Shown here: positions 35,767 through 53,800 of the stretch, in pieces
Layout of the letters: the number at the start of each line of letters is the position of its first letter
Position numbering within the stretch: position 1 is the first letter of the stretch
Source: Candidatus Borrarchaeum weybense
GTDB taxonomy: Archaea; Asgardarchaeota; Sifarchaeia; Borrarchaeales; Borrarchaeaceae
DNA length: 64,000 nt
Direction of reading: 5' to 3'
Assembly: GCA_019057385.1 (NCBI GenBank)
Contig: JAHQJS010000007.1
Span: 256,001-320,000, forward strand
Translations under genes and position numbers: made by a program
The notes under the pieces: model-generated
Seen by the model: the letters and a program-made list of their open reading frames with translations, nothing else
Database searches by the model: none
What the model was told of the DNA's origin: nothing

Positions 35767-36912
35767 ATGAAATTGCATGAGTATGAAGCTAAAAAGATAT
35801 TTGCTGAGTATGGCGTCCCTGTTCCAAACGGCGAAATAGCATCTAATTCTGATGAGGTTAAAGCAATCGCTGATCGTCTAAATAGACCAGTGGTTGTCAA
35901 ATCGCAAATTTTAGTTTCTGGGAGAGGCAAAGCAGGCGGAATTAAAATTGCTGAAAAATCAGAAGACGCAAAAACTGTGAGCCAAAGTATTCTGGGTATG
36001 AATATTAAGGGACTCACAGTCGAAAAAGTTCTGGTGGAAGAGAGGCTCAATATTGCTAAAGAGTTTTATTTGAGCATCATTGTAGATCGCAGTGCACGGA
36101 GCTATGTAACCATTACCGCAAAAGAAGGTGGCGTAGATATTGAGCAATTAGCATTAGAAAAGCCTGATCAAATACTCAAAGTTTACATCCAGCCGTACTT
36201 TGGAATTCGAACTTTTGAAGTAAGAAAACTCGCGCAATTTCTTACATCCTCAAGAGAATTACAGAAAGAGATTATTTCTATAATAAACAAGTTTTTTGAA
36301 GTTGTTACTGCATATGACTGCGAACTTATTGAAAGTAATCCGTTGGTATTGACAAAAGAGGGTAAAATTATCGCCGCAGACGCACGAATGATTATTGACG
36401 ACAATTCTTTGTTTCGACATCCTCAATTACAGGATAAGGCTAAAGAAGAGTTACGTGATCTTACTGAGTTTGAATTAAGAGCTAAGGAATTTGGTTTTAG
36501 TTATGTTGATCTTGATGGCAATATTGGAATCATAGCTAATGGAGCTGGCTTGACAATGGCTTCAATGGACATAATTGATTTTTATGGTGGAAGGCCAGCA
36601 AATTTCCTAGATATTGGTGGTGGTGCTCGTGCTGAAAGAATGCTAGAGGCAACAAAATTACTTTTAGAGAACCCTAGAGTAAAAGGTATCCTTGTAAATA
36701 TACTTGGAGGAATTACACGCGGTGATGAAGTAGCACAGGGAATTGTGGACGCGCTTAAAATCACAGCTGTAAATAAGCCGATTGTAATTCGTCTCGTGGG
36801 AACAAGAGAAAAAGAAGGACAAAAAATTCTGGAAGAAGCAGGTATTGAATATCTTAAATCTATGGAAACGGCAGCTAAAAGAATAGTAGAACTTGTCGGT
36901 AGCGGAGGATAA
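35767..36912 (+). CDS. sucC: Succinyl-CoA ligase (ADP-forming) beta subunit
   Basis: MKLHEYEAK, GRGKAGG, NGAGL, PANFLDIGGGA. Confidence 0.95.
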   Translation: MKLHEYEAKKIFAEYGVPVPNGEIASNSDEVKAIADRLNRPVVVKSQILVSGRGKAGGIKIAEKSEDAKTVSQSILGMNIKGLTVEKVLVEERLNIAKEFYLSIIVDRSARSYVTITAKEGGVDIEQLALEKPDQILKVYIQPYFGIRTFEVRKLAQFLTSSRELQKEIISIINKFFEVVTAYDCELIESNPLVLTKEGKIIAADARMIIDDNSLFRHPQLQDKAKEELRDLTEFELRAKEFGFSYVDLDGNIGIIANGAGLTMASMDIIDFYGGRPANFLDIGGGARAERMLEATKLLLENPRVKGILVNILGGITRGDEVAQGIVDALKITAVNKPIVIRLVGTREKEGQKILEEAGIEYLKSMETAAKRIVELVGSGG

Positions 36913-48789: not shown

Positions 48790-49983
48790 ATGGATTCAGC
48801 TAAACTTCAAAGATATTGTGGTATATCTCGAAACATAGAAGAATCTTTTATTAATATTCACCCGATTCAGAGAGGTGGCGTATTAACTGCTGAAGCCAAG
48901 AAAGTTCTATTGGATTTCGGTGATGGCTATTCAATGTGTGATTTCTGTTTCGAAGCACGAATTGTTACTGTTAAGAAACCACCTGTTGTAGATTTTATAC
49001 AGGATCTAGCAAAATTTCTAGATGTTGATGAAGTGCGACCAACTGCAGGAGCAAGACATGCAAAAAGAGCTGTGATGGAGGCTATAACCGAACCTGGAGA
49101 CACAATAGTCCTTGATAGTTTGGCACATTATACCACTTATATTACAGCAGAAGCGGCAAAACTGAATGTTAAAGAGGTTCCTCATAGTGGATATCCTGAT
49201 TTTCTGCTAAATGTAGAAGATTATGCAGCAAAAATTGAAGAAGTTGAGGATTCAACGGGTAAACTCCCTGCCCTTGTAGTTTTAACGCATGTAGATTATA
49301 ATTATGGCAACCTAAGTGATGTTAAAAGTGTTGCTGAGATCTCACACAAATATGGAGTCCCCTTCTTACTAAATGGAGCATATACTGTCGGCATTATGCC
49401 TGTCTCAGGTCGCAATTTAGGTGTAGACTTTCTTGTAGCTAGCGGTCACAAATCGATGAGCGCTTCAGCTCCAATTGGGTTGCTTGGAACGACATCAGAA
49501 TGGGCAGAAAAGATCTTCGAGAGATCGAAAATAAAAGGAGACTGGAGTGGAAGGACTTTTGGGGCAAAAGAAATTCATATTTTGGGTTGTCCGCCTGTCT
49601 TTGGACCACCTTTAGCAACTTTGATGGCAAGTTTTCCAAAAGTTGTTGAACGCGTTAAGCATTGGGACAAGGAAGTTGAAAAAGCCCGTTACTTTTCAGA
49701 AAGCATACAAAAAATTGATGGAATTAAACAACTTGGAATTAAACCAAAGGAGCATACTTTAGTCCATTTTGAGAGCCCAAGTTTTCATGATGTTGCTCAA
49801 CATCATAAAAGGAAAGGATTCTTCATTTATGACGCACTTAAAAAAAGAAAAATAATGGGAGTCCATCCAGGGCTTTCAAAAAGCTTCAAAGTCAATACTT
49901 TCAATCTTTCATGGGACCAAATTAAGTATGTGGTCGAAACCTTTCAGGAAATTGCGGAACAAAATGGTATCACAGTTCAATAA
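48790..49983 (+). CDS. pscS: Sep-tRNA:Cys-tRNA synthase (SepCysS)
   Basis: INIHPIQRGG, DGYSMCDFC, SGHKSM, LGC. Confidence 0.93.
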   Translation: MDSAKLQRYCGISRNIEESFINIHPIQRGGVLTAEAKKVLLDFGDGYSMCDFCFEARIVTVKKPPVVDFIQDLAKFLDVDEVRPTAGARHAKRAVMEAITEPGDTIVLDSLAHYTTYITAEAAKLNVKEVPHSGYPDFLLNVEDYAAKIEEVEDSTGKLPALVVLTHVDYNYGNLSDVKSVAEISHKYGVPFLLNGAYTVGIMPVSGRNLGVDFLVASGHKSMSASAPIGLLGTTSEWAEKIFERSKIKGDWSGRTFGAKEIHILGCPPVFGPPLATLMASFPKVVERVKHWDKEVEKARYFSESIQKIDGIKQLGIKPKEHTLVHFESPSFHDVAQHHKRKGFFIYDALKKRKIMGVHPGLSKSFKVNTFNLSWDQIKYVVETFQEIAEQNGITVQ

Positions 49984-50079: not shown

Positions 50080-51458
50080 AATATCTCCGCAAGAAGACCC
50101 ACCCAACGTGTTGGGGGGATGAAGTGCGTGTTGTGACTGGTTTCACTTTCACGGTAGTGTCCCCCAGTTTAAATAGCTGTTTGCGGATACTAACTATCGT
50201 TAGTGATATGAAGCTCAGGGGAACAGAGGAAGACCTGTGATGAAACGCACGTACAAATTTCGCCTGTATCCCACCGCACTGCAACAGGCGACCTTAAGGC
50301 AATGGCTGACTACCTGTCGCCTGTTGTATAATAACGCGCTTGCCGAACGAAAAGAGACCTGGCACAGGCAGCAACAGTCAGTCAGTTATTATGAGCAAGC
50401 CAGCCACTTGAAAGCGGCAAAACAGACCGATCAGTTGTTGCAGGAGATGCATTCGCAGGTACTACAAGACGTGCTTAGAAGACTGGATAAGACCTTTAAG
50501 AATTTTTTTCGGCGAATTAAAAAGGGGGAACACGCTGGCTACCCACGCTTTAAAGGGAAATACCGGTATGATTCCTTCACCTACCCACAAAGTGGGTTCG
50601 CCCTCGATTACCACAACAAGAAACTTCGGCTCTCGAAAATTGGAGATATCACGATTAAATTACACCGTCCTATCCCTTCTGAAGGCGTGATCAAGACCTG
50701 TACCATTACACGCGATATTGACCACTGGTATGCCTGTTTTGCAGTAGCACTTCCTGATCCTGCTCCTGGAACTCAGCAAAGAGCCATAAAGAGCGCGATA
50801 GGTGTGGATGTGGGGCTTAAGAGTTTACTGACGTTAAATAATGGAGAAACAATAGCTAACCCACGCTGGTTCAGAAAATCGGAGAAGAAATTAGCCAAAG
50901 AACAGCGAAGGAAAGATAGGAAGCAGAAAGGGTCACATAATCGTCATAAACAGAACAGGAAGGTGGCACAGGTGCACCGGAAGATCCGCAACCAACGGAA
51001 TGACTTTCATCACAAGCTCAGTCGGAAACTGGTCGATGCCTATGACCTCATCGTCTATGAGAATCTTACCATTACCAACATGGTGAAAAACCATCATCTC
51101 GCCAAGTCGATTAGTGACGCCGGCTGGGGGCAACTCATGTGTTTTACCGAGTACAAAGCGGAGGAAGCTGGTACTGTAGTAGAATATGTGAGTGCCTATA
51201 ATACCACACAACTGTGTAGCCAGTGCGGGAAGCTGGTGCCGAAAACCCTGGCAACACGAATCCACAGTTGCCCTTACTGTGGACTGGTGTTAGCGAGAGA
51301 TCATAATTCAGCCATCACGGTGTTACACCGATCAACCCACTATATAGAAGCACGCTCATCATCATCAGGGCAGGAACTGCCCGTAGAGCCTGGTTGACAT
51401 GTCCCGCTGGGGAATGGATGATTCAGGAAGCCACCCTACTTGTTGGGTGGTAGTTCAC
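50080..51458 (+). mobile_element. IS200/IS605 (IS1341-type, tnpB only) element
   Basis: Left-end hairpin after TTAT; right end caggaagccacccta...gggtggtagtTCAC; higher GC than flanks; no tnpA. Confidence 0.88.
50237..51397 (+). CDS. tnpB: TnpB RNA-guided endonuclease
   Basis: YKFRLYPT; RuvC residues in GVDVG, VYENL and RDHNSA; CSQC/CPYC zinc ribbon. Confidence 0.95.
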   Translation: MMKRTYKFRLYPTALQQATLRQWLTTCRLLYNNALAERKETWHRQQQSVSYYEQASHLKAAKQTDQLLQEMHSQVLQDVLRRLDKTFKNFFRRIKKGEHAGYPRFKGKYRYDSFTYPQSGFALDYHNKKLRLSKIGDITIKLHRPIPSEGVIKTCTITRDIDHWYACFAVALPDPAPGTQQRAIKSAIGVDVGLKSLLTLNNGETIANPRWFRKSEKKLAKEQRRKDRKQKGSHNRHKQNRKVAQVHRKIRNQRNDFHHKLSRKLVDAYDLIVYENLTITNMVKNHHLAKSISDAGWGQLMCFTEYKAEEAGTVVEYVSAYNTTQLCSQCGKLVPKTLATRIHSCPYCGLVLARDHNSAITVLHRSTHYIEARSSSSGQELPVEPG

Positions 51459-51535
51459 ATCCGTCGTACTATGTGCTTTTCGAAAACTTATTATATTCAA
51501 ACTTTTTATCATGTTACAAATCGTAAGGAGGAAAA

Positions 51536-51795
51536 ATGAAAATGCGAGAAGAAGTTGAAAAAGCGATAAATGAATTACGAGGACCTTTGCGTAATGATGG
51601 AGGAGATGTTGAACTAGTTGATGTTCAGGGAAGTAAGGTGTTAGTCCGTCTAATGGGTGCATGTGCTGGCTGTCCTTTTAGTCAGGATGTTTATTAAACT
51701 TAAGCATCCCTAAAAAGATGACAGTCAAGAACTATATTGAAGCAGAGTTAAAAAAGAGAGTGCCCGGGGTCAGTGAAGTCGTCCCCGTTGCTTAA
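51536..51795 (+). CDS. nifU: NifU/NfuA C-terminal domain Fe-S carrier, split gene join(51536..51683,51716..51795)
   Basis: Spliced 75-aa product MKMREEVEKAINELRGPLRNDGGDVELVDVQGSKVLVRLMGACAGCPFSQMTVKNYIEAELKKRVPGVSEVVPVA; SD AAGGAGG. Confidence 0.9.
51684..51715 (+). other. 32-nt bulge-helix-bulge (BHB) intron in an mRNA
   Basis: Central helix UUAG/CUAA, 3-nt bulges UCA and AAA, inner stem GGAUGUUUA/UAAGCAUCC, outer stem GGCUGUC/GACAGUC; canonical cuts restore the frame. Confidence 0.85.
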
Positions 51796-51913
51796 AATAT
51801 TTCACATTAGGTTTCAGCAAATATTCTAATGTAGATCTTATTTGTTTTGCATTAAATCATTTGTTGAAATATCTTATCTCATTTAAAGAATGGGTTATTT
51901 TTTCTATTTCATT

Positions 51914-53800
51914 TTAGCATCTTTCCCATGCTGTAATATGGGCATCAATATAGGCTTTTATTAGATGTGACCAGTCACTTTTTTTGGCAAGTTCCCTTGC
52001 ATTTTGCTTCAATTTTTCGAGTTCCTCTTGAGATAACTGAGAAATATCATATAACATCTTCCATAAATCATCAACTATTTCTTGATTTGATCTATTGTGT
52101 CGCCTAAGAATCTTGATGCCTAGGTTTTTTTGTTCTCTATTAGATTGAATTCCAAGCAAGCTGTATCCATAGCCTGTTAAGTCGGTAGTAACAGCAATAA
52201 CGCACCTACTTGCTGCCTCTAGCGGCGTATAACCAAATGGTTCATATATCGAGGGATAAATACCCACATCTGTTGCTGAAATTGCATCAAAATAATCCAA
52301 ATTTAGAAAACCATCTTTTCTAGAAAGATATATTGGCATAAAAATAACTTTAACTCTATCCCTTTCCTCATTTCTAAGGTTCACGGCATTCGCTGCAGTG
52401 ATTATTGCGTCATTTGGAACTAGCATGTTATGTGTGCAAATTGGGAGTGAACCAATTCTTCCCGTTATTTGCTCTTTTGCATTTTCAAAATCATTAATTG
52501 TTTGTGTAAAATCATCTGCGAAAAAGTCTTTGAGATTCTTACTGAAGACCCCCTCTAATGTACCATTATAAAGTCCATGAATTACTTCATCTTCTATTTT
52601 AAATAAAAAAGGAGCTATTTTATCAGCTACCATCGAGTAATGACTCACAGCTTTTTCAATGTCTTCTCTTGGATTAAGAACAGCCGCTGGCACCCAAATA
52701 AAAGCAAATACATTTCTATCTGATTCCTTACTTTTTAAGAACTCATTTAAGTTAGACAATGATTGAATGAAAATGTCTATCCCTTTATTACTAAATTCAT
52801 ATCGACCAGAAAGATGGACAATAAGCGAATTTTCAGTTTTTACATTATACCAAGGCGCGAAAAATGCTTCTATAAACCGTATAATTTTAGGTCGCGTTCT
52901 CATTCGTCGTCTTCTGCAATCTTCACCTTTTAAAAAGGTCGAGAAATCTAAACCATTTGGAGTAATCATCATTTGATCTACTCCGTGAATGTATCGAATT
53001 TCTTTTGCTGTAATTTCACTTACTGTTGTAAGTACATCAGCTTCTCGGCAACAGACTTGTTCCATCAGATGCTTGCCTTCGAGTTTGAATTGAAATGCTT
53101 GCCCTTGATCCGCCATCATTGCTTTGTCTTGCCCAAGTCCTTCATCAATTTCCTTAATCAGATCATGACCGGCTTCTGCCTTTTTTCTTCCTAGCATAGT
53201 TGCATGAGTAGTGAAAATTTTACCGATCTTTGTACCTTGTAACTTAAGGTAAAGAAGTCCTGCGCCCGCTAACCATTCGTGAAAATGTGCGACAACCCTC
53301 TTAGAAGCAAACTGAGGTGCAGTAAGTACCCCCTCTATAAGCATTCCTGTGGCCCAAGACCATGCAATTGGCTCATCGTAATCGAATCCCATCATTAGTG
53401 AGTCTATTTTGTATTTCTCCCAGAATAACCCCTTTATATCGTCAACCTGCCTCACTGTCTGCCCATCTGGCTTTATAACCATTCGATTCATAAAATCTCT
53501 TGAATCTATTAAAAATACGAAACTTTCATCTCCAGCTACCCATCTGCCAAAATATACTTTTATCCCTGCATCTCCTAACTTGCGAAATAACCATTCAAAT
53601 TCTCTAGGAGGTGTCATGTCAATAAAATCTTCACTTACATGAGCAGGGTTATAAAAACCAATGCCATAATAGTTTTCTGAACCATATACTAATTTCATAT
53701 ACTTTGCTTTACTTGCAATAACTTGGTAAATTCCACCTACCTTATTTGCAATTTCGAATGACACTTCGAAACAAGAATCGGGGGCGTTATCTCTCTCCAT
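51914..53800 (-). CDS. GT3-family glycogen synthase
   Basis: FEVSFEIANKVGGIY, HFHEWL, TTHATMLGR, GRYEFSNKG, YEPFGYTPLE. Confidence 0.9.
   Translation of the reverse strand: MERDNAPDSCFEVSFEIANKVGGIYQVIASKAKYMKLVYGSENYYGIGFYNPAHVSEDFIDMTPPREFEWLFRKLGDAGIKVYFGRWVAGDESFVFLIDSRDFMNRMVIKPDGQTVRQVDDIKGLFWEKYKIDSLMMGFDYDEPIAWSWATGMLIEGVLTAPQFASKRVVAHFHEWLAGAGLLYLKLQGTKIGKIFTTHATMLGRKKAEAGHDLIKEIDEGLGQDKAMMADQGQAFQFKLEGKHLMEQVCCREADVLTTVSEITAKEIRYIHGVDQMMITPNGLDFSTFLKGEDCRRRRMRTRPKIIRFIEAFFAPWYNVKTENSLIVHLSGRYEFSNKGIDIFIQSLSNLNEFLKSKESDRNVFAFIWVPAAVLNPREDIEKAVSHYSMVADKIAPFLFKIEDEVIHGLYNGTLEGVFSKNLKDFFADDFTQTINDFENAKEQITGRIGSLPICTHNMLVPNDAIITAANAVNLRNEERDRVKVIFMPIYLSRKDGFLNLDYFDAISATDVGIYPSIYEPFGYTPLEAASRCVIAVTTDLTGYGYSLLGIQSNREQKNLGIKILRRHNRSNQEIVDDLWKMLYDISQLSQEELEKLKQNARELAKKSDWSHLIKAYIDAHITAWERC

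What the first reader, a model, noticed from the sequence alone, without database searches (positions are those of the whole stretch)
51536..51795. tRNA-type (BHB) intron inside an mRNA: frame-switching 32-nt intron in a nifU gene
Seen: the NifU frame breaks four codons after CAGC (the unspliced product ends SQDVY*) and resumes out of frame as MTVKNYIE. The junction folds as GGCUGUCCUU-UUAG-[UC^A]-GGAUGUUUA-(7-nt loop)-UAAGCAUCC-CUAA-[AA^A]-GAUGACAGUC, a 4-bp helix with two 3-nt bulges. Cutting after the second bulge nucleotide on each side removes 51684-51715 and yields CAGCPFSQMTVK, matching the NifU consensus. Known: the archaeal splicing endonuclease EndA cuts BHB motifs at these positions and RtcB ligates the ends; mRNA substrates are rare, with crenarchaeal cbf5 the classic case. 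Inference: this probable Asgard archaeon splices an Fe-S carrier mRNA with the tRNA machinery, possibly as a regulated on/off switch analogous to HAC1/XBP1 splicing. More such genes may be hidden as apparent pseudogenes.
Basis: partly seen in the sequence, partly recalled or inferred. Interest (0 to 1): 0.93.

Follow-up and report, generated by a model that had tools for sequence, protein, structure and literature searches.

The report
tRNA-type intron inside Asgard nifU gene
The only NifU-type iron-sulfur carrier gene of this Asgard archaeon is interrupted by a 32-base insert with the exact shape cut by the archaeal tRNA-splicing enzyme; it is very probably a recently gained messenger-RNA intron, one of several in this genome, though splicing has not been seen at RNA level.

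Summary
Observation confirmed. A 75-codon NifU-like gene (PF01106; 51536-51795, +) is broken by 32 nt (51684-51715). With its exon flanks the insert forms a strict hBHBh' motif: 4-bp helix UUAG/CUAA, bulges UC^A and AA^A, 9-bp intron stem, 9/10-bp exon-exon stem. Cutting after the second bulge base gives CPFSQMTVK, the junction in every intronless orthologue. All 82 orthologues examined are uninterrupted, including a 72/75-identical allele. A fold this good at fixed boundaries is expected about 1e-7 times. The insert is no assembly artefact: contigs from two other data sets carry it unchanged.

The genome encodes alpha and beta EndA subunits and RtcB. cbf5, rfcS, rrp41 and secY carry similar 30-35-nt inserts. 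The first three are kept across the genus with structure-preserving changes, so mRNA splicing by this machinery is very likely active.

Not shown: spliced RNA (no RNA runs). The proposed HAC1/XBP1-like switch has no support; presence/absence polymorphism among near-identical strains argues for a recent, probably neutral gain.

In the papers I could search, coding-sequence BHB introns are described only for crenarchaeal cbf5. This scan has flagged other Asgard mRNA BHB introns on other DNA. Verdict: new member of a known kind; interest 0.68.

The parts
51536..51683 (+). Exon 1 of the NifU-like gene (codons 1-49 plus the first base of Gln50). GGAGG lies at 51527-51531, four bases upstream of the ATG.
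   Evidence: ORF and translation. PF01106 profile 1-45, E 6e-16. The start ATG aligns with the start of the congeners' genes.
51684..51715 (+). 32-nt BHB intron. It holds the in-frame stop TAA at 51695-51697 and shifts the frame by +2.
   Evidence: Exactly these 32 nt are missing in the same-genus genomes G002 and G004. They are missing in all 82 orthologues examined. They are identical in an ENA contig and present without gaps in a contig of run X5. The sequence is single-copy in the genome.
51716..51795 (+). Exon 2 (last two bases of Gln50, codons 51-75, stop TAA 51793-51795).
   Evidence: PF01106 profile 46-67. The protein is identical to exon 2 of the G004 orthologue. The exon-2 SNPs seen in other strains (51762, 51774, 51783) are all third-position and synonymous in this frame. 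I read no Shine-Dalgarno motif before ATG 51718.
51668..51677 (+). Outer helix h, 5' strand (exon 1, GGCUGUCCUU).
   Evidence: Pairs with 51717-51726 in 9 of 10 positions. Pair probabilities are 0.98-1.0 for the distal 7 bp.
51678..51681 (+). Central helix H, 5' strand (UUAG, exon 1).
   Evidence: 4/4 pairs with CUAA at 51710-51713.
51682..51684 (+). 5' bulge UC^A. Predicted cut between 51683 and 51684.
   Evidence: Geometry. It is unpaired in both the MFE and the centroid fold.
51685..51709 (+). Intron hairpin h': 9-bp stem (51685-51693 / 51701-51709) with a 7-nt loop (51694-51700).
   Evidence: 9/9 pairs. Pair probabilities are at least 0.98.
51710..51713 (+). Central helix H, 3' strand (CUAA, intron).
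51714..51716 (+). 3' bulge AA^A. Predicted cut between 51715 and 51716.
   Evidence: cbf5 and rfcS in this genome also have A as the third base of both bulges, and I read the same in the rrp41 sequence.
51717..51726 (+). Outer helix h, 3' strand (exon 2, GAUGACAGUC).
   Evidence: The distal 7-bp part of this helix also forms (7/7) in the three intronless same-genus orthologues, but in none of the other 65 orthologues tested.
51470..51535 (+). Conserved upstream region with an A/T-rich TATA-like box (about 51487-51498) and the ribosome-binding site. It remains intact downstream of the IS insertion.
   Evidence: Conserved with the congeners and with the IS-free ENA strain. Promoter function is inferred only.

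Best explanation
The 32 nt at 51684-51715 are an archaeal bulge-helix-bulge intron in the pre-mRNA of this Asgard archaeon's single NifU/Nfu-type Fe-S carrier gene.

Inferred mechanism: the transcript folds so that exon 1 and exon 2 pair (outer helix). The last four exon-1 bases before the bulge pair with the 3' end of the intron (4-bp helix). The rest of the intron forms a hairpin.

The heteromeric (alpha-beta)2 splicing endonuclease EndA cuts after the second base of each 3-nt bulge (51683|51684 and 51715|51716). RtcB joins the exons into a 228-nt ORF (75 aa, ...CAGCPFSQMTVK...) and probably circularises the 32-nt intron. Unspliced RNA would give only a truncated 53-aa product.

The intron is a young, lineage-specific gain, or a gain followed by precise loss in close kin. 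It sits at a site where the exon-exon helix already existed. It is one of several mRNA introns of this type in the genome.

Shown here: structure, exact boundaries, exact restoration of the orthologous protein, presence in independent assemblies, presence of the enzymes, and comparable introns in other genes conserved across the genus. Inferred: cleavage, ligation, circularisation and timing of the gain.
For: 1. Strict hBHBh' geometry: H 4/4, h 9/10, h' 9/9, both bulges 3 nt. Fold z = -4.5.
2. The canonical cut rule removes exactly the 32 nt absent from congeners. It yields CPFSQMTVK, the junction in G002, G004, L026 and the 72/75-identical allele P0003.
3. The two halves hit PF01106 at profile 1-45 and 46-67.
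4. Chance expectation at fixed boundaries is about 1e-7. Among all ORF-restoring BHB candidates in the 4.18-Mb genome this site ranks first and cbf5 second.
5. It is not an artefact. A run-X5 contig from another study covers 51492-51833 with 4 SNPs and no gap. ENA contig L110 carries the intron 32/32 identical and lacks the upstream IS.
6. The exons are otherwise intact, and the exon-2 SNPs are synonymous in the spliced frame.
7. The machinery is present. One EndA paralogue matches the catalytic half of fused EndA models. The other matches the N-terminal half and the beta-subunit models. RtcB is intact.
8. The same genome has 30-35-nt inserts splitting cbf5, rfcS (Walker A), rrp41 and secY at conserved motifs.
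9. The cbf5, rfcS and rrp41 inserts are conserved in up to four congeners with structure-preserving changes, for example G-C to A-U in the rfcS intron stem. The rrp41 insert is precisely absent in another genus.
10. DKCLD (cbf5) and PF01106 are single-copy in the genome.
Against: 1. There is no RNA evidence of any kind.
2. The intron is invariant in the three alleles seen and absent everywhere else, so covariation cannot be tested for this intron.
3. A near-identical intronless allele exists, and only 12 of 61 Asgard genomes searched have this gene. The gene may therefore be dispensable and a dead copy tolerated.
4. The canonical BHB register is 2.5 kcal/mol above the MFE because of U/A-run slippage.
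5. BHB-like folds of equal score occur by chance inside uninterrupted coding sequence, for example window 36506-36538.
6. A structure-plus-ORF scan shows no genome-wide excess over a mirror-geometry control. Structure alone is therefore weak evidence; the exact boundary match is what carries the argument.
Confidence: 0.8

Rival explanations
1. Unspliced insertion, making the gene a young pseudogene. A 32-nt hairpin-forming sequence landed in nifU and inactivated a dispensable gene. Its BHB likeness reflects its origin (for example a stray intron-like sequence) but it is not removed efficiently.
For: The insert occurs only in near-identical strains. An intronless allele exists within the same 90% protein cluster. 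The gene is missing from most Asgard genomes searched. An IS element has also landed 78 nt upstream in G000. The age is too short for decay to be visible.
Against: A random insertion has about a 1e-7 chance of forming this BHB at its own boundaries. An insert with that geometry is, by the known substrate rule, a substrate of the EndA that this cell must use for cbf5, rfcS, rrp41 and secY. This is the only PF01106 gene in the genome. The allele persists in at least three assemblies with SNPs around it and none in it.
Confidence: 0.12
2. Regulated on/off switch. Splicing would be conditional, as for HAC1/XBP1, so that NifU is made only under certain conditions.
For: Nothing direct. The unspliced RNA would give a truncated protein, so the extent of splicing would set the protein level.
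Against: The intron is absent from all 82 orthologues examined and from a 96%-identical allele, so it is not a conserved regulatory feature. The geometry is that of constitutive tRNA-type substrates. Sister introns sit in housekeeping genes that need constant expression. I searched for no Ire1-like sensor nuclease.
Confidence: 0.05
3. Assembly or sequencing artefact, or translational bypass or frameshift instead of RNA splicing.
For: The window comes from a metagenome-assembled genome. Frame changes can also be handled at the ribosome in rare cases.
Against: The same 32 nt stand in contigs from two other data sets. For bypassing there are no matched take-off and landing codons (CAG versus AAG), and the stop lies four codons after the break. 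A +2 shift across 32 nt with an in-frame stop is not a known frameshift signal (my reading).
Confidence: 0.02

Closest known systems
cbf5 pre-mRNA BHB intron of Crenarchaeota (Watanabe 2002; Yoshinari 2006; Yokobori 2009, PMC2738675)
   Same: A short BHB intron inside a protein-coding sequence. It depends on a hetero-oligomeric EndA, and lineage-specific presence and absence is documented. This genome's own cbf5 also carries a strict BHB intron.
   Different: The host gene is a small Fe-S carrier rather than an RNA-modification enzyme. The phylum is Asgard rather than Crenarchaeota. The intron is much younger (strain or species level) and is one of several mRNA introns in the same genome. Splicing has not been shown experimentally here.
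BHB intron in the 5' UTR of Haloferax volcanii HVO_1309 mRNA (PMC7714728)
   Same: An mRNA substrate of the tRNA splicing endonuclease.
   Different: That intron lies in the untranslated leader and does not interrupt a reading frame. It was verified in vivo and in vitro.
[quoted passage not shown]
   Same: Same phylum, same BHB motif and same inferred EndA dependence. Introns were gained repeatedly, sit where the exon context lets the motif form, and have no identifiable donor copy. The nifU intron likewise has no second copy in the genome.
   Different: Those reports treat tRNA genes only. I found 0 occurrences of 'mRNA' in the preprint's main text, and no mention of protein-coding-gene introns in the passages retrieved from the 2024 paper.
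HAC1/XBP1 unconventional cytoplasmic splicing (Ire1 plus RtcB or Trl1)
   Same: A non-spliceosomal, protein-catalysed mRNA intron whose removal changes the reading frame. RtcB-type ligation applies in metazoa.
   Different: The nuclease (Ire1) and the substrate (two 7-nt loops, not BHB) are different, and that system is stress-regulated. No regulation is evident here.

Membership tests
Archaeal BHB intron (EndA/RtcB-spliced) | [quoted passage not shown] | tested here: met
   UUAG/CUAA 4/4, with bulges UCA (51682-51684) and AAA (51714-51716).
Archaeal BHB intron (EndA/RtcB-spliced) | Flanking helices h (exon-exon) and h' (intron), the strict hBHBh' form | tested here: met
   h 9/10 and h' 9/9. 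Pair probabilities are 0.98-1.0 except for the two h pairs next to the bulge.
Archaeal BHB intron (EndA/RtcB-spliced) | Cuts after the second bulge base restore the functional sequence | tested here: met
   The product junction CPFSQMTVK equals the intronless orthologues. The Pfam profile is contiguous at 45/46.
Archaeal BHB intron (EndA/RtcB-spliced) | Host encodes the splicing endonuclease and an RtcB ligase | tested here: met
   Two EndA paralogues are present, alpha-like and beta-like. RtcB is a 485-aa ORF.
Archaeal BHB intron (EndA/RtcB-spliced) | Spliced RNA and/or excised (circular) intron observed | not testable with these tools
   No RNA run could be laid, so nothing can be said about RNA.
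Archaeal BHB intron (EndA/RtcB-spliced) | Structure maintained by compensatory change in homologous introns | tested here: inconclusive
   The nifU intron is identical in L110 and shows no listed difference in the X5 contig, and it is absent elsewhere. The sister introns in cbf5 and rfcS do show structure-preserving changes across the genus.
NifU/Nfu-type Fe-S cluster carrier domain (PF01106) | Profile match above the curated cut-off and a CxxC motif | tested here: met
   Exon 1 alone scores 58.8 bits against a cut-off of 27. The CAGC motif is present. The orthologue L003 matches the C-terminal domain of NifU and NfuA in NCBIfam.
HAC1/XBP1-type regulated unconventional splicing | Twin stem-loops with 7-nt loops cut by an Ire1-type sensor nuclease | tested here: not met
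   The splice sites lie in 3-nt bulges of a BHB, not in 7-nt loops.
HAC1/XBP1-type regulated unconventional splicing | Condition-dependent splicing | not testable with these tools
   No RNA data are available.

The most novel reading that the evidence does not exclude
BHB introns are currently being gained, and perhaps precisely lost, in protein-coding genes of this Asgard lineage. The nifU locus catches one event at population level. Intron-bearing and intronless alleles differ by about 1-4% around the site. The intron has no donor copy in the genome. It sits exactly where a 7-bp exon-exon helix pre-existed in the genus. If this is right, the locus is a natural experiment on how endonuclease-type introns arrive in mRNAs in the closest prokaryotic relatives of eukaryotes. 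An intronless allele (P0003) that shares a derived residue (Asp5) with two intron-bearing alleles hints at precise loss, which would itself require spliced RNA.
Probability: 0.4. Interest if true: 0.85.

Novelty: new member of a known kind. Interest (0 to 1): 0.68.

Why it matters
Protein-coding genes interrupted by tRNA-type introns have been treated as a curiosity. A 2020 paper states that the only such intron reported beyond tRNA and rRNA is in crenarchaeal cbf5 mRNA, and it adds one 5'-UTR case of its own (PMC7714728).

This Asgard genome carries such introns in at least five genes. Four of them (cbf5, rfcS, rrp41, secY) are housekeeping genes. mRNA splicing by the tRNA machinery therefore appears to be routine in this lineage.

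The practical consequence is for annotation. Gene callers report these genes as truncated or as pseudogenes; nifU is on record as a 51- or 53-aa protein. Asgard proteomes and completeness or metabolic inferences are distorted accordingly.

The conceptual consequence concerns intron origin. The nifU intron is young and polymorphic, so it gives a concrete handle on how these introns originate. A 2026 preprint on Asgard tRNA introns calls this the central open problem.

Tried and rejected
1. RNA evidence: no RNA holder was listed for the 2-kb or the 331-nt query, so expression and splicing could not be examined.
2. Other copies of the intron: blastn-short found only chance matches of 16 nt or less in the genome. 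No intron family or donor was found.
3. Genome-wide count of mRNA introns: three structure scans with ORF-restoration and codon-usage filters gave the same numbers as a mirror-geometry control. No total can be given. The scans also missed the relaxed rfcS, rrp41 and secY motifs.
4. Conserved intron in relatives: 11 genome loci and 71 metagenome loci are all uninterrupted. No covariation test is possible for this intron.
5. Exact look-up of the predicted spliced protein: not in the 15-billion-protein collection. P0004 (51 aa) has no contig on record. The contig of the intronless allele P0003 could not be fetched, so I cannot tell whether it is DNA or RNA derived.
6. Rfam: nothing near the gathering score in 51350-51900. 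ARAGORN found no tRNA in the window.
7. nifS-nifU operon idea: the upstream gene is SepCysS, not a cysteine desulfurase.
8. Another high-scoring BHB-like fold in the window (36506-36538) is ordinary in-frame coding sequence of a succinyl-CoA-synthetase-like gene, not an intron.
9. Translational bypass or frameshift, and assembly artefact: considered and rejected (see rivals).

Full report
**The observation**

The + strand at 51536-51795 holds two short ORFs. The first is 51536-51697 (53 aa, ending CAGCPFSQDVY*). The second is 51718-51795 (25 aa, MTVKNYIE...), 182 nt downstream and so in another frame. Pfam NifU (PF01106) matches the first at profile positions 1-45 (58.8 bits, cut-off 27) and the second at positions 46-67. 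The two pieces are abutting halves of one domain.

The RNA from 51660 to 51735 folds at -23.2 kcal/mol, with z = -4.5 against dinucleotide shuffles.
- outer helix 51668-51677/51717-51726, 9 of 10 pairs;
- central helix UUAG/CUAA, 4 of 4;
- 3-nt bulges UC^A and AA^A on opposite strands, each on the 3' side of its helix strand (my recollection of the anticodon-intron pairing in pre-tRNA is that this is the natural handedness);
- intron hairpin of 9 bp with a 7-nt loop.

The canonical register is 2.5 kcal/mol above the minimum-energy fold because the U4/A5 run can slip. Its central pairs have ensemble probability 0.48-0.72.

**Is it more than chance?**

I scanned both strands of the 4.18-Mb genome for this geometry at intron lengths of 12-120 nt. 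Folds scoring at least as well as nifU occur 19 times in 9.1e8 position-by-length combinations. A mirror geometry that EndA should not cut gives 27. Such folds do arise by chance, and one sits in ordinary coding sequence in this very window (36506-36538).

The nifU boundaries are not free, however. Alignment with two same-genus genomes shows exactly these 32 nt as a clean indel. The chance that an arbitrary 32-nt insert forms such a BHB at its own ends is therefore about 1e-7. Among all BHB candidates whose removal rejoins two well-coding ORFs, nifU ranks first in the genome and cbf5 second.

**What the relatives show**

Same-genus genomes G002 and G004 have uninterrupted 75-codon genes reading ...CAGCPFSQMTVKN..., the junction predicted by cutting after the second base of each bulge. 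G002's record is titled 'Promethearchaeota archaeon', so the Asgard assignment holds. Nine further Asgard genomes and 71 metagenome loci are likewise uninterrupted. The intron is therefore confined to the window's own species-level lineage.

It is not an artefact:
- A contig of run X5 (another study, 2015) covers 51492-51833 with four SNPs and no gap. Run X6 contains intronless relatives.
- ENA contig L110 carries the intron 32/32 identical. It has three SNPs in the coding region: one conservative replacement in exon 1, one synonymous in exon 1 and one synonymous in exon 2. It lacks the IS element found upstream in the window.

In the same 90% protein cluster there is an intronless 75-aa allele, 72/75 identical to the predicted spliced product, next to the same glycogen synthase gene. 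Presence and absence is thus polymorphic among very close strains.

That intronless allele shares Asp5 with two intron-bearing alleles. Asp5 is derived, because the congeners have Glu. This hints at precise loss rather than a single late gain, but one residue is thin evidence.

**A pre-formed site**

The distal 7 bp of the exon-exon helix (GGYUGUC/GACRGUY, codons Gly-Cys-Pro against Met-Thr-Val) form 7/7 in the three intronless same-genus orthologues. None of the other 65 orthologues reaches 7/7; most have 4-5 of 7. The intron therefore sits where half of the motif already existed. A 2026 preprint reports the same for Asgard tRNA introns (bioRxiv 10.64898/2026.10.13.758758). As in that study, I found no donor: the 32 nt are single-copy.

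**The machinery and the sister introns**

The genome encodes two EndA paralogues. One has the Tyr/His/Lys positions, as I read the motifs, and aligns to the catalytic half of fused EndA models. The other aligns to the N-terminal half and to beta-subunit models. This fits the broad-specificity (alpha-beta)2 enzyme described for Asgard and TACK archaea (PMC5829648). An intact RtcB is also present.

Other genes in this genome are split in the same way:
- cbf5 carries a strict 35-nt BHB between GHGGTL and DPGV. Its halves hit DKCLD and TruB_N/TruB_C/PUA.
- rfcS is split inside Walker A (GPPGT|GKT) by 30 nt with two in-frame stops.
- rrp41 is split at RNase_PH profile position 63/64 by 31 nt.
- secY is split between DPF and FWMR by 30 nt with an in-frame TAG.

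These rest. The secY reading rests on my recall of the SecY/Sec61alpha motif.

The cbf5, rfcS and rrp41 inserts are present in up to four same-genus genomes at 79-96% DNA identity. Helix H and the bulges are conserved. The hairpins change in structure-preserving ways, for example AGGTC...ACCT to AGATC...ATCT in rfcS. The rrp41 insert is precisely absent in another genus of the class.

DKCLD is single-copy. These are housekeeping genes, so the cell must remove such inserts from mRNA. The nifU insert is a better EndA substrate by motif than most of them. cbf5 and rfcS share A as the third base of both bulges with nifU, and I read the same in the rrp41 sequence.

**Mechanism and rivals**

The best explanation (about 0.8) is a genuine EndA/RtcB-spliced pre-mRNA intron of recent origin.

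The main rival (about 0.12) is that the insert is not, or only poorly, removed, and that nifU is a young pseudogene. This is possible for three reasons. The gene is absent from most Asgard genomes searched (12 of 61 have it). An intronless allele circulates. No RNA data exist. Against it stand the boundary statistics, the intact exons, the synonymous exon-2 SNP, and the fact that this is the only PF01106 gene.

The intron is not conserved, the geometry is that of constitutive substrates, and the sister introns lie in housekeeping genes.

Artefact and ribosomal bypass are rejected (no matched take-off and landing codons).

**Comparison with what is known**

In the library I could search, BHB introns in mRNA are described for cbf5 of Crenarchaeota, with lineage-specific loss (PMC2738675). 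One 5'-UTR case is described in Haloferax. That 2020 paper states that, besides its own case, only the cbf5 example had been reported (PMC7714728).

Asgard papers describe very intron-rich tRNA genes. In the passages I retrieved from PMC11291895 I found no mention of protein-coding-gene introns, and the term 'mRNA' does not occur in the main text of the 2026 preprint.

Earlier notes of this scan report similar mRNA introns in other Asgard genomes and in other windows of this genome. I treated these as leads. I re-derived rfcS, rrp41, cbf5 and secY myself.

I file the nifU intron as a new member of a known kind, the coding-sequence BHB intron. Its particular value is that it is young and polymorphic.

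**Surroundings**

Upstream lies SepCysS (48790-49983). Next comes a 1378-bp TnpB-only IS200/IS605 element (50081-51458) that is absent from the ENA strain. Its right end is highly repeated in all four metagenomes. The IS stops 78 nt before the nifU start and leaves the conserved A/T-rich box and GGAGG intact. Downstream, and convergent, is a glycogen synthase of family PF05693.

Noticed in passing
window 50081-51458: A TnpB-only IS200/IS605 element (ORF 50237-51397 with the OrfB_IS605, Cas12f1-like TNB and HTH domains) is inserted cleanly between SepCysS and nifU, 78 nt before the nifU start. It is absent from the otherwise 98%-identical ENA contig L110 and from the congeners. Its right end (about 51370-51458) has 10-100 times the depth of the flanks in four metagenomes, so it is a multi-copy element.
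   Followed up: partly
G000:C5:277852-277886 (-) = L022:1852-1886: cbf5 carries a strict 35-nt BHB intron (H CUCU/AGAG, bulges AG^A and UA^A, 10-bp intron stem) between GHGGTL and DPGV. It is conserved in three congeners with indels and changes in the hairpin. This is the classic crenarchaeal host gene, here in an Asgard archaeon. I did not compare the position with the crenarchaeal intron site.
   Followed up: partly
G000:C3:113733-113762 (-) and C3:140668-140698 (+): rfcS is split inside Walker A (GPPGT|GKT) by a 30-nt relaxed BHB with two in-frame stops. rrp41 is split at RNase_PH profile position 63/64 by a 31-nt BHB. Both are conserved in all four congeners, with a G-C to A-U compensatory change in the rfcS intron stem. 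The rrp41 intron is precisely absent in genome G005 (another genus of the same class).
   Followed up: yes
G000:C5:281845-281874 (-): secY has a 30-nt insert with an in-frame TAG between DPF and FWMR of the conserved Sec61alpha/SecY motif. The flanks CCAGA...UCUGG can pair. BHB geometry was not scored here, and the boundaries are ambiguous by a few bases.
   Followed up: partly
window 36506-36538: A fold with perfect BHB geometry (h 9, H 4/4, h' about 9) lies inside a succinyl-CoA-synthetase-beta-like ORF. The 33 nt are ordinary in-frame coding sequence (..YVDLDGNIGIIANGAG..), so this is a chance look-alike. It is a useful caution, and it raises the question of how EndA avoids such sites.
   Followed up: yes
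L002, L003, L026 (intronless same-genus nifU): The 7-bp exon-exon helix used by the nifU BHB forms 7/7 in these three intronless genes despite three substitutions, all to G-U pairs. None of the other 65 orthologues reaches 7/7. This is either a pre-adapted insertion site or a relic of an ancestral intron.
   Followed up: partly
protein P0003 (JGI sample 3300042731, 1197-nt contig): This intronless nifU allele is 72/75 identical to the predicted spliced product and shares the derived Asp5 with intron-bearing alleles. The DNA was not retrievable, so I cannot tell whether the contig is genomic (precise loss or polymorphism) or RNA derived.
   Followed up: no
G000:C7:143743-143811 and contig C1: ARAGORN calls a tRNA-Pyl(CUA) on C7. 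Contig C1 (39% GC) has a compact intron-free tRNA array (Glu-Ala-Gly-Met-Tyr-Pro) and a second RtcB-like gene, unlike the intron-rich tRNA genes on C4 and C5. C1 may be a contaminant or a mobile element (the genome's contamination estimate is 7%).
   Followed up: no
window 48790-49983 and 51914-53800: The neighbours are SepCysS (Sep-tRNA:Cys-tRNA synthase, 584 bits) upstream and a 628-aa glycogen synthase of family PF05693 (316 bits) convergent downstream.
   Followed up: partly
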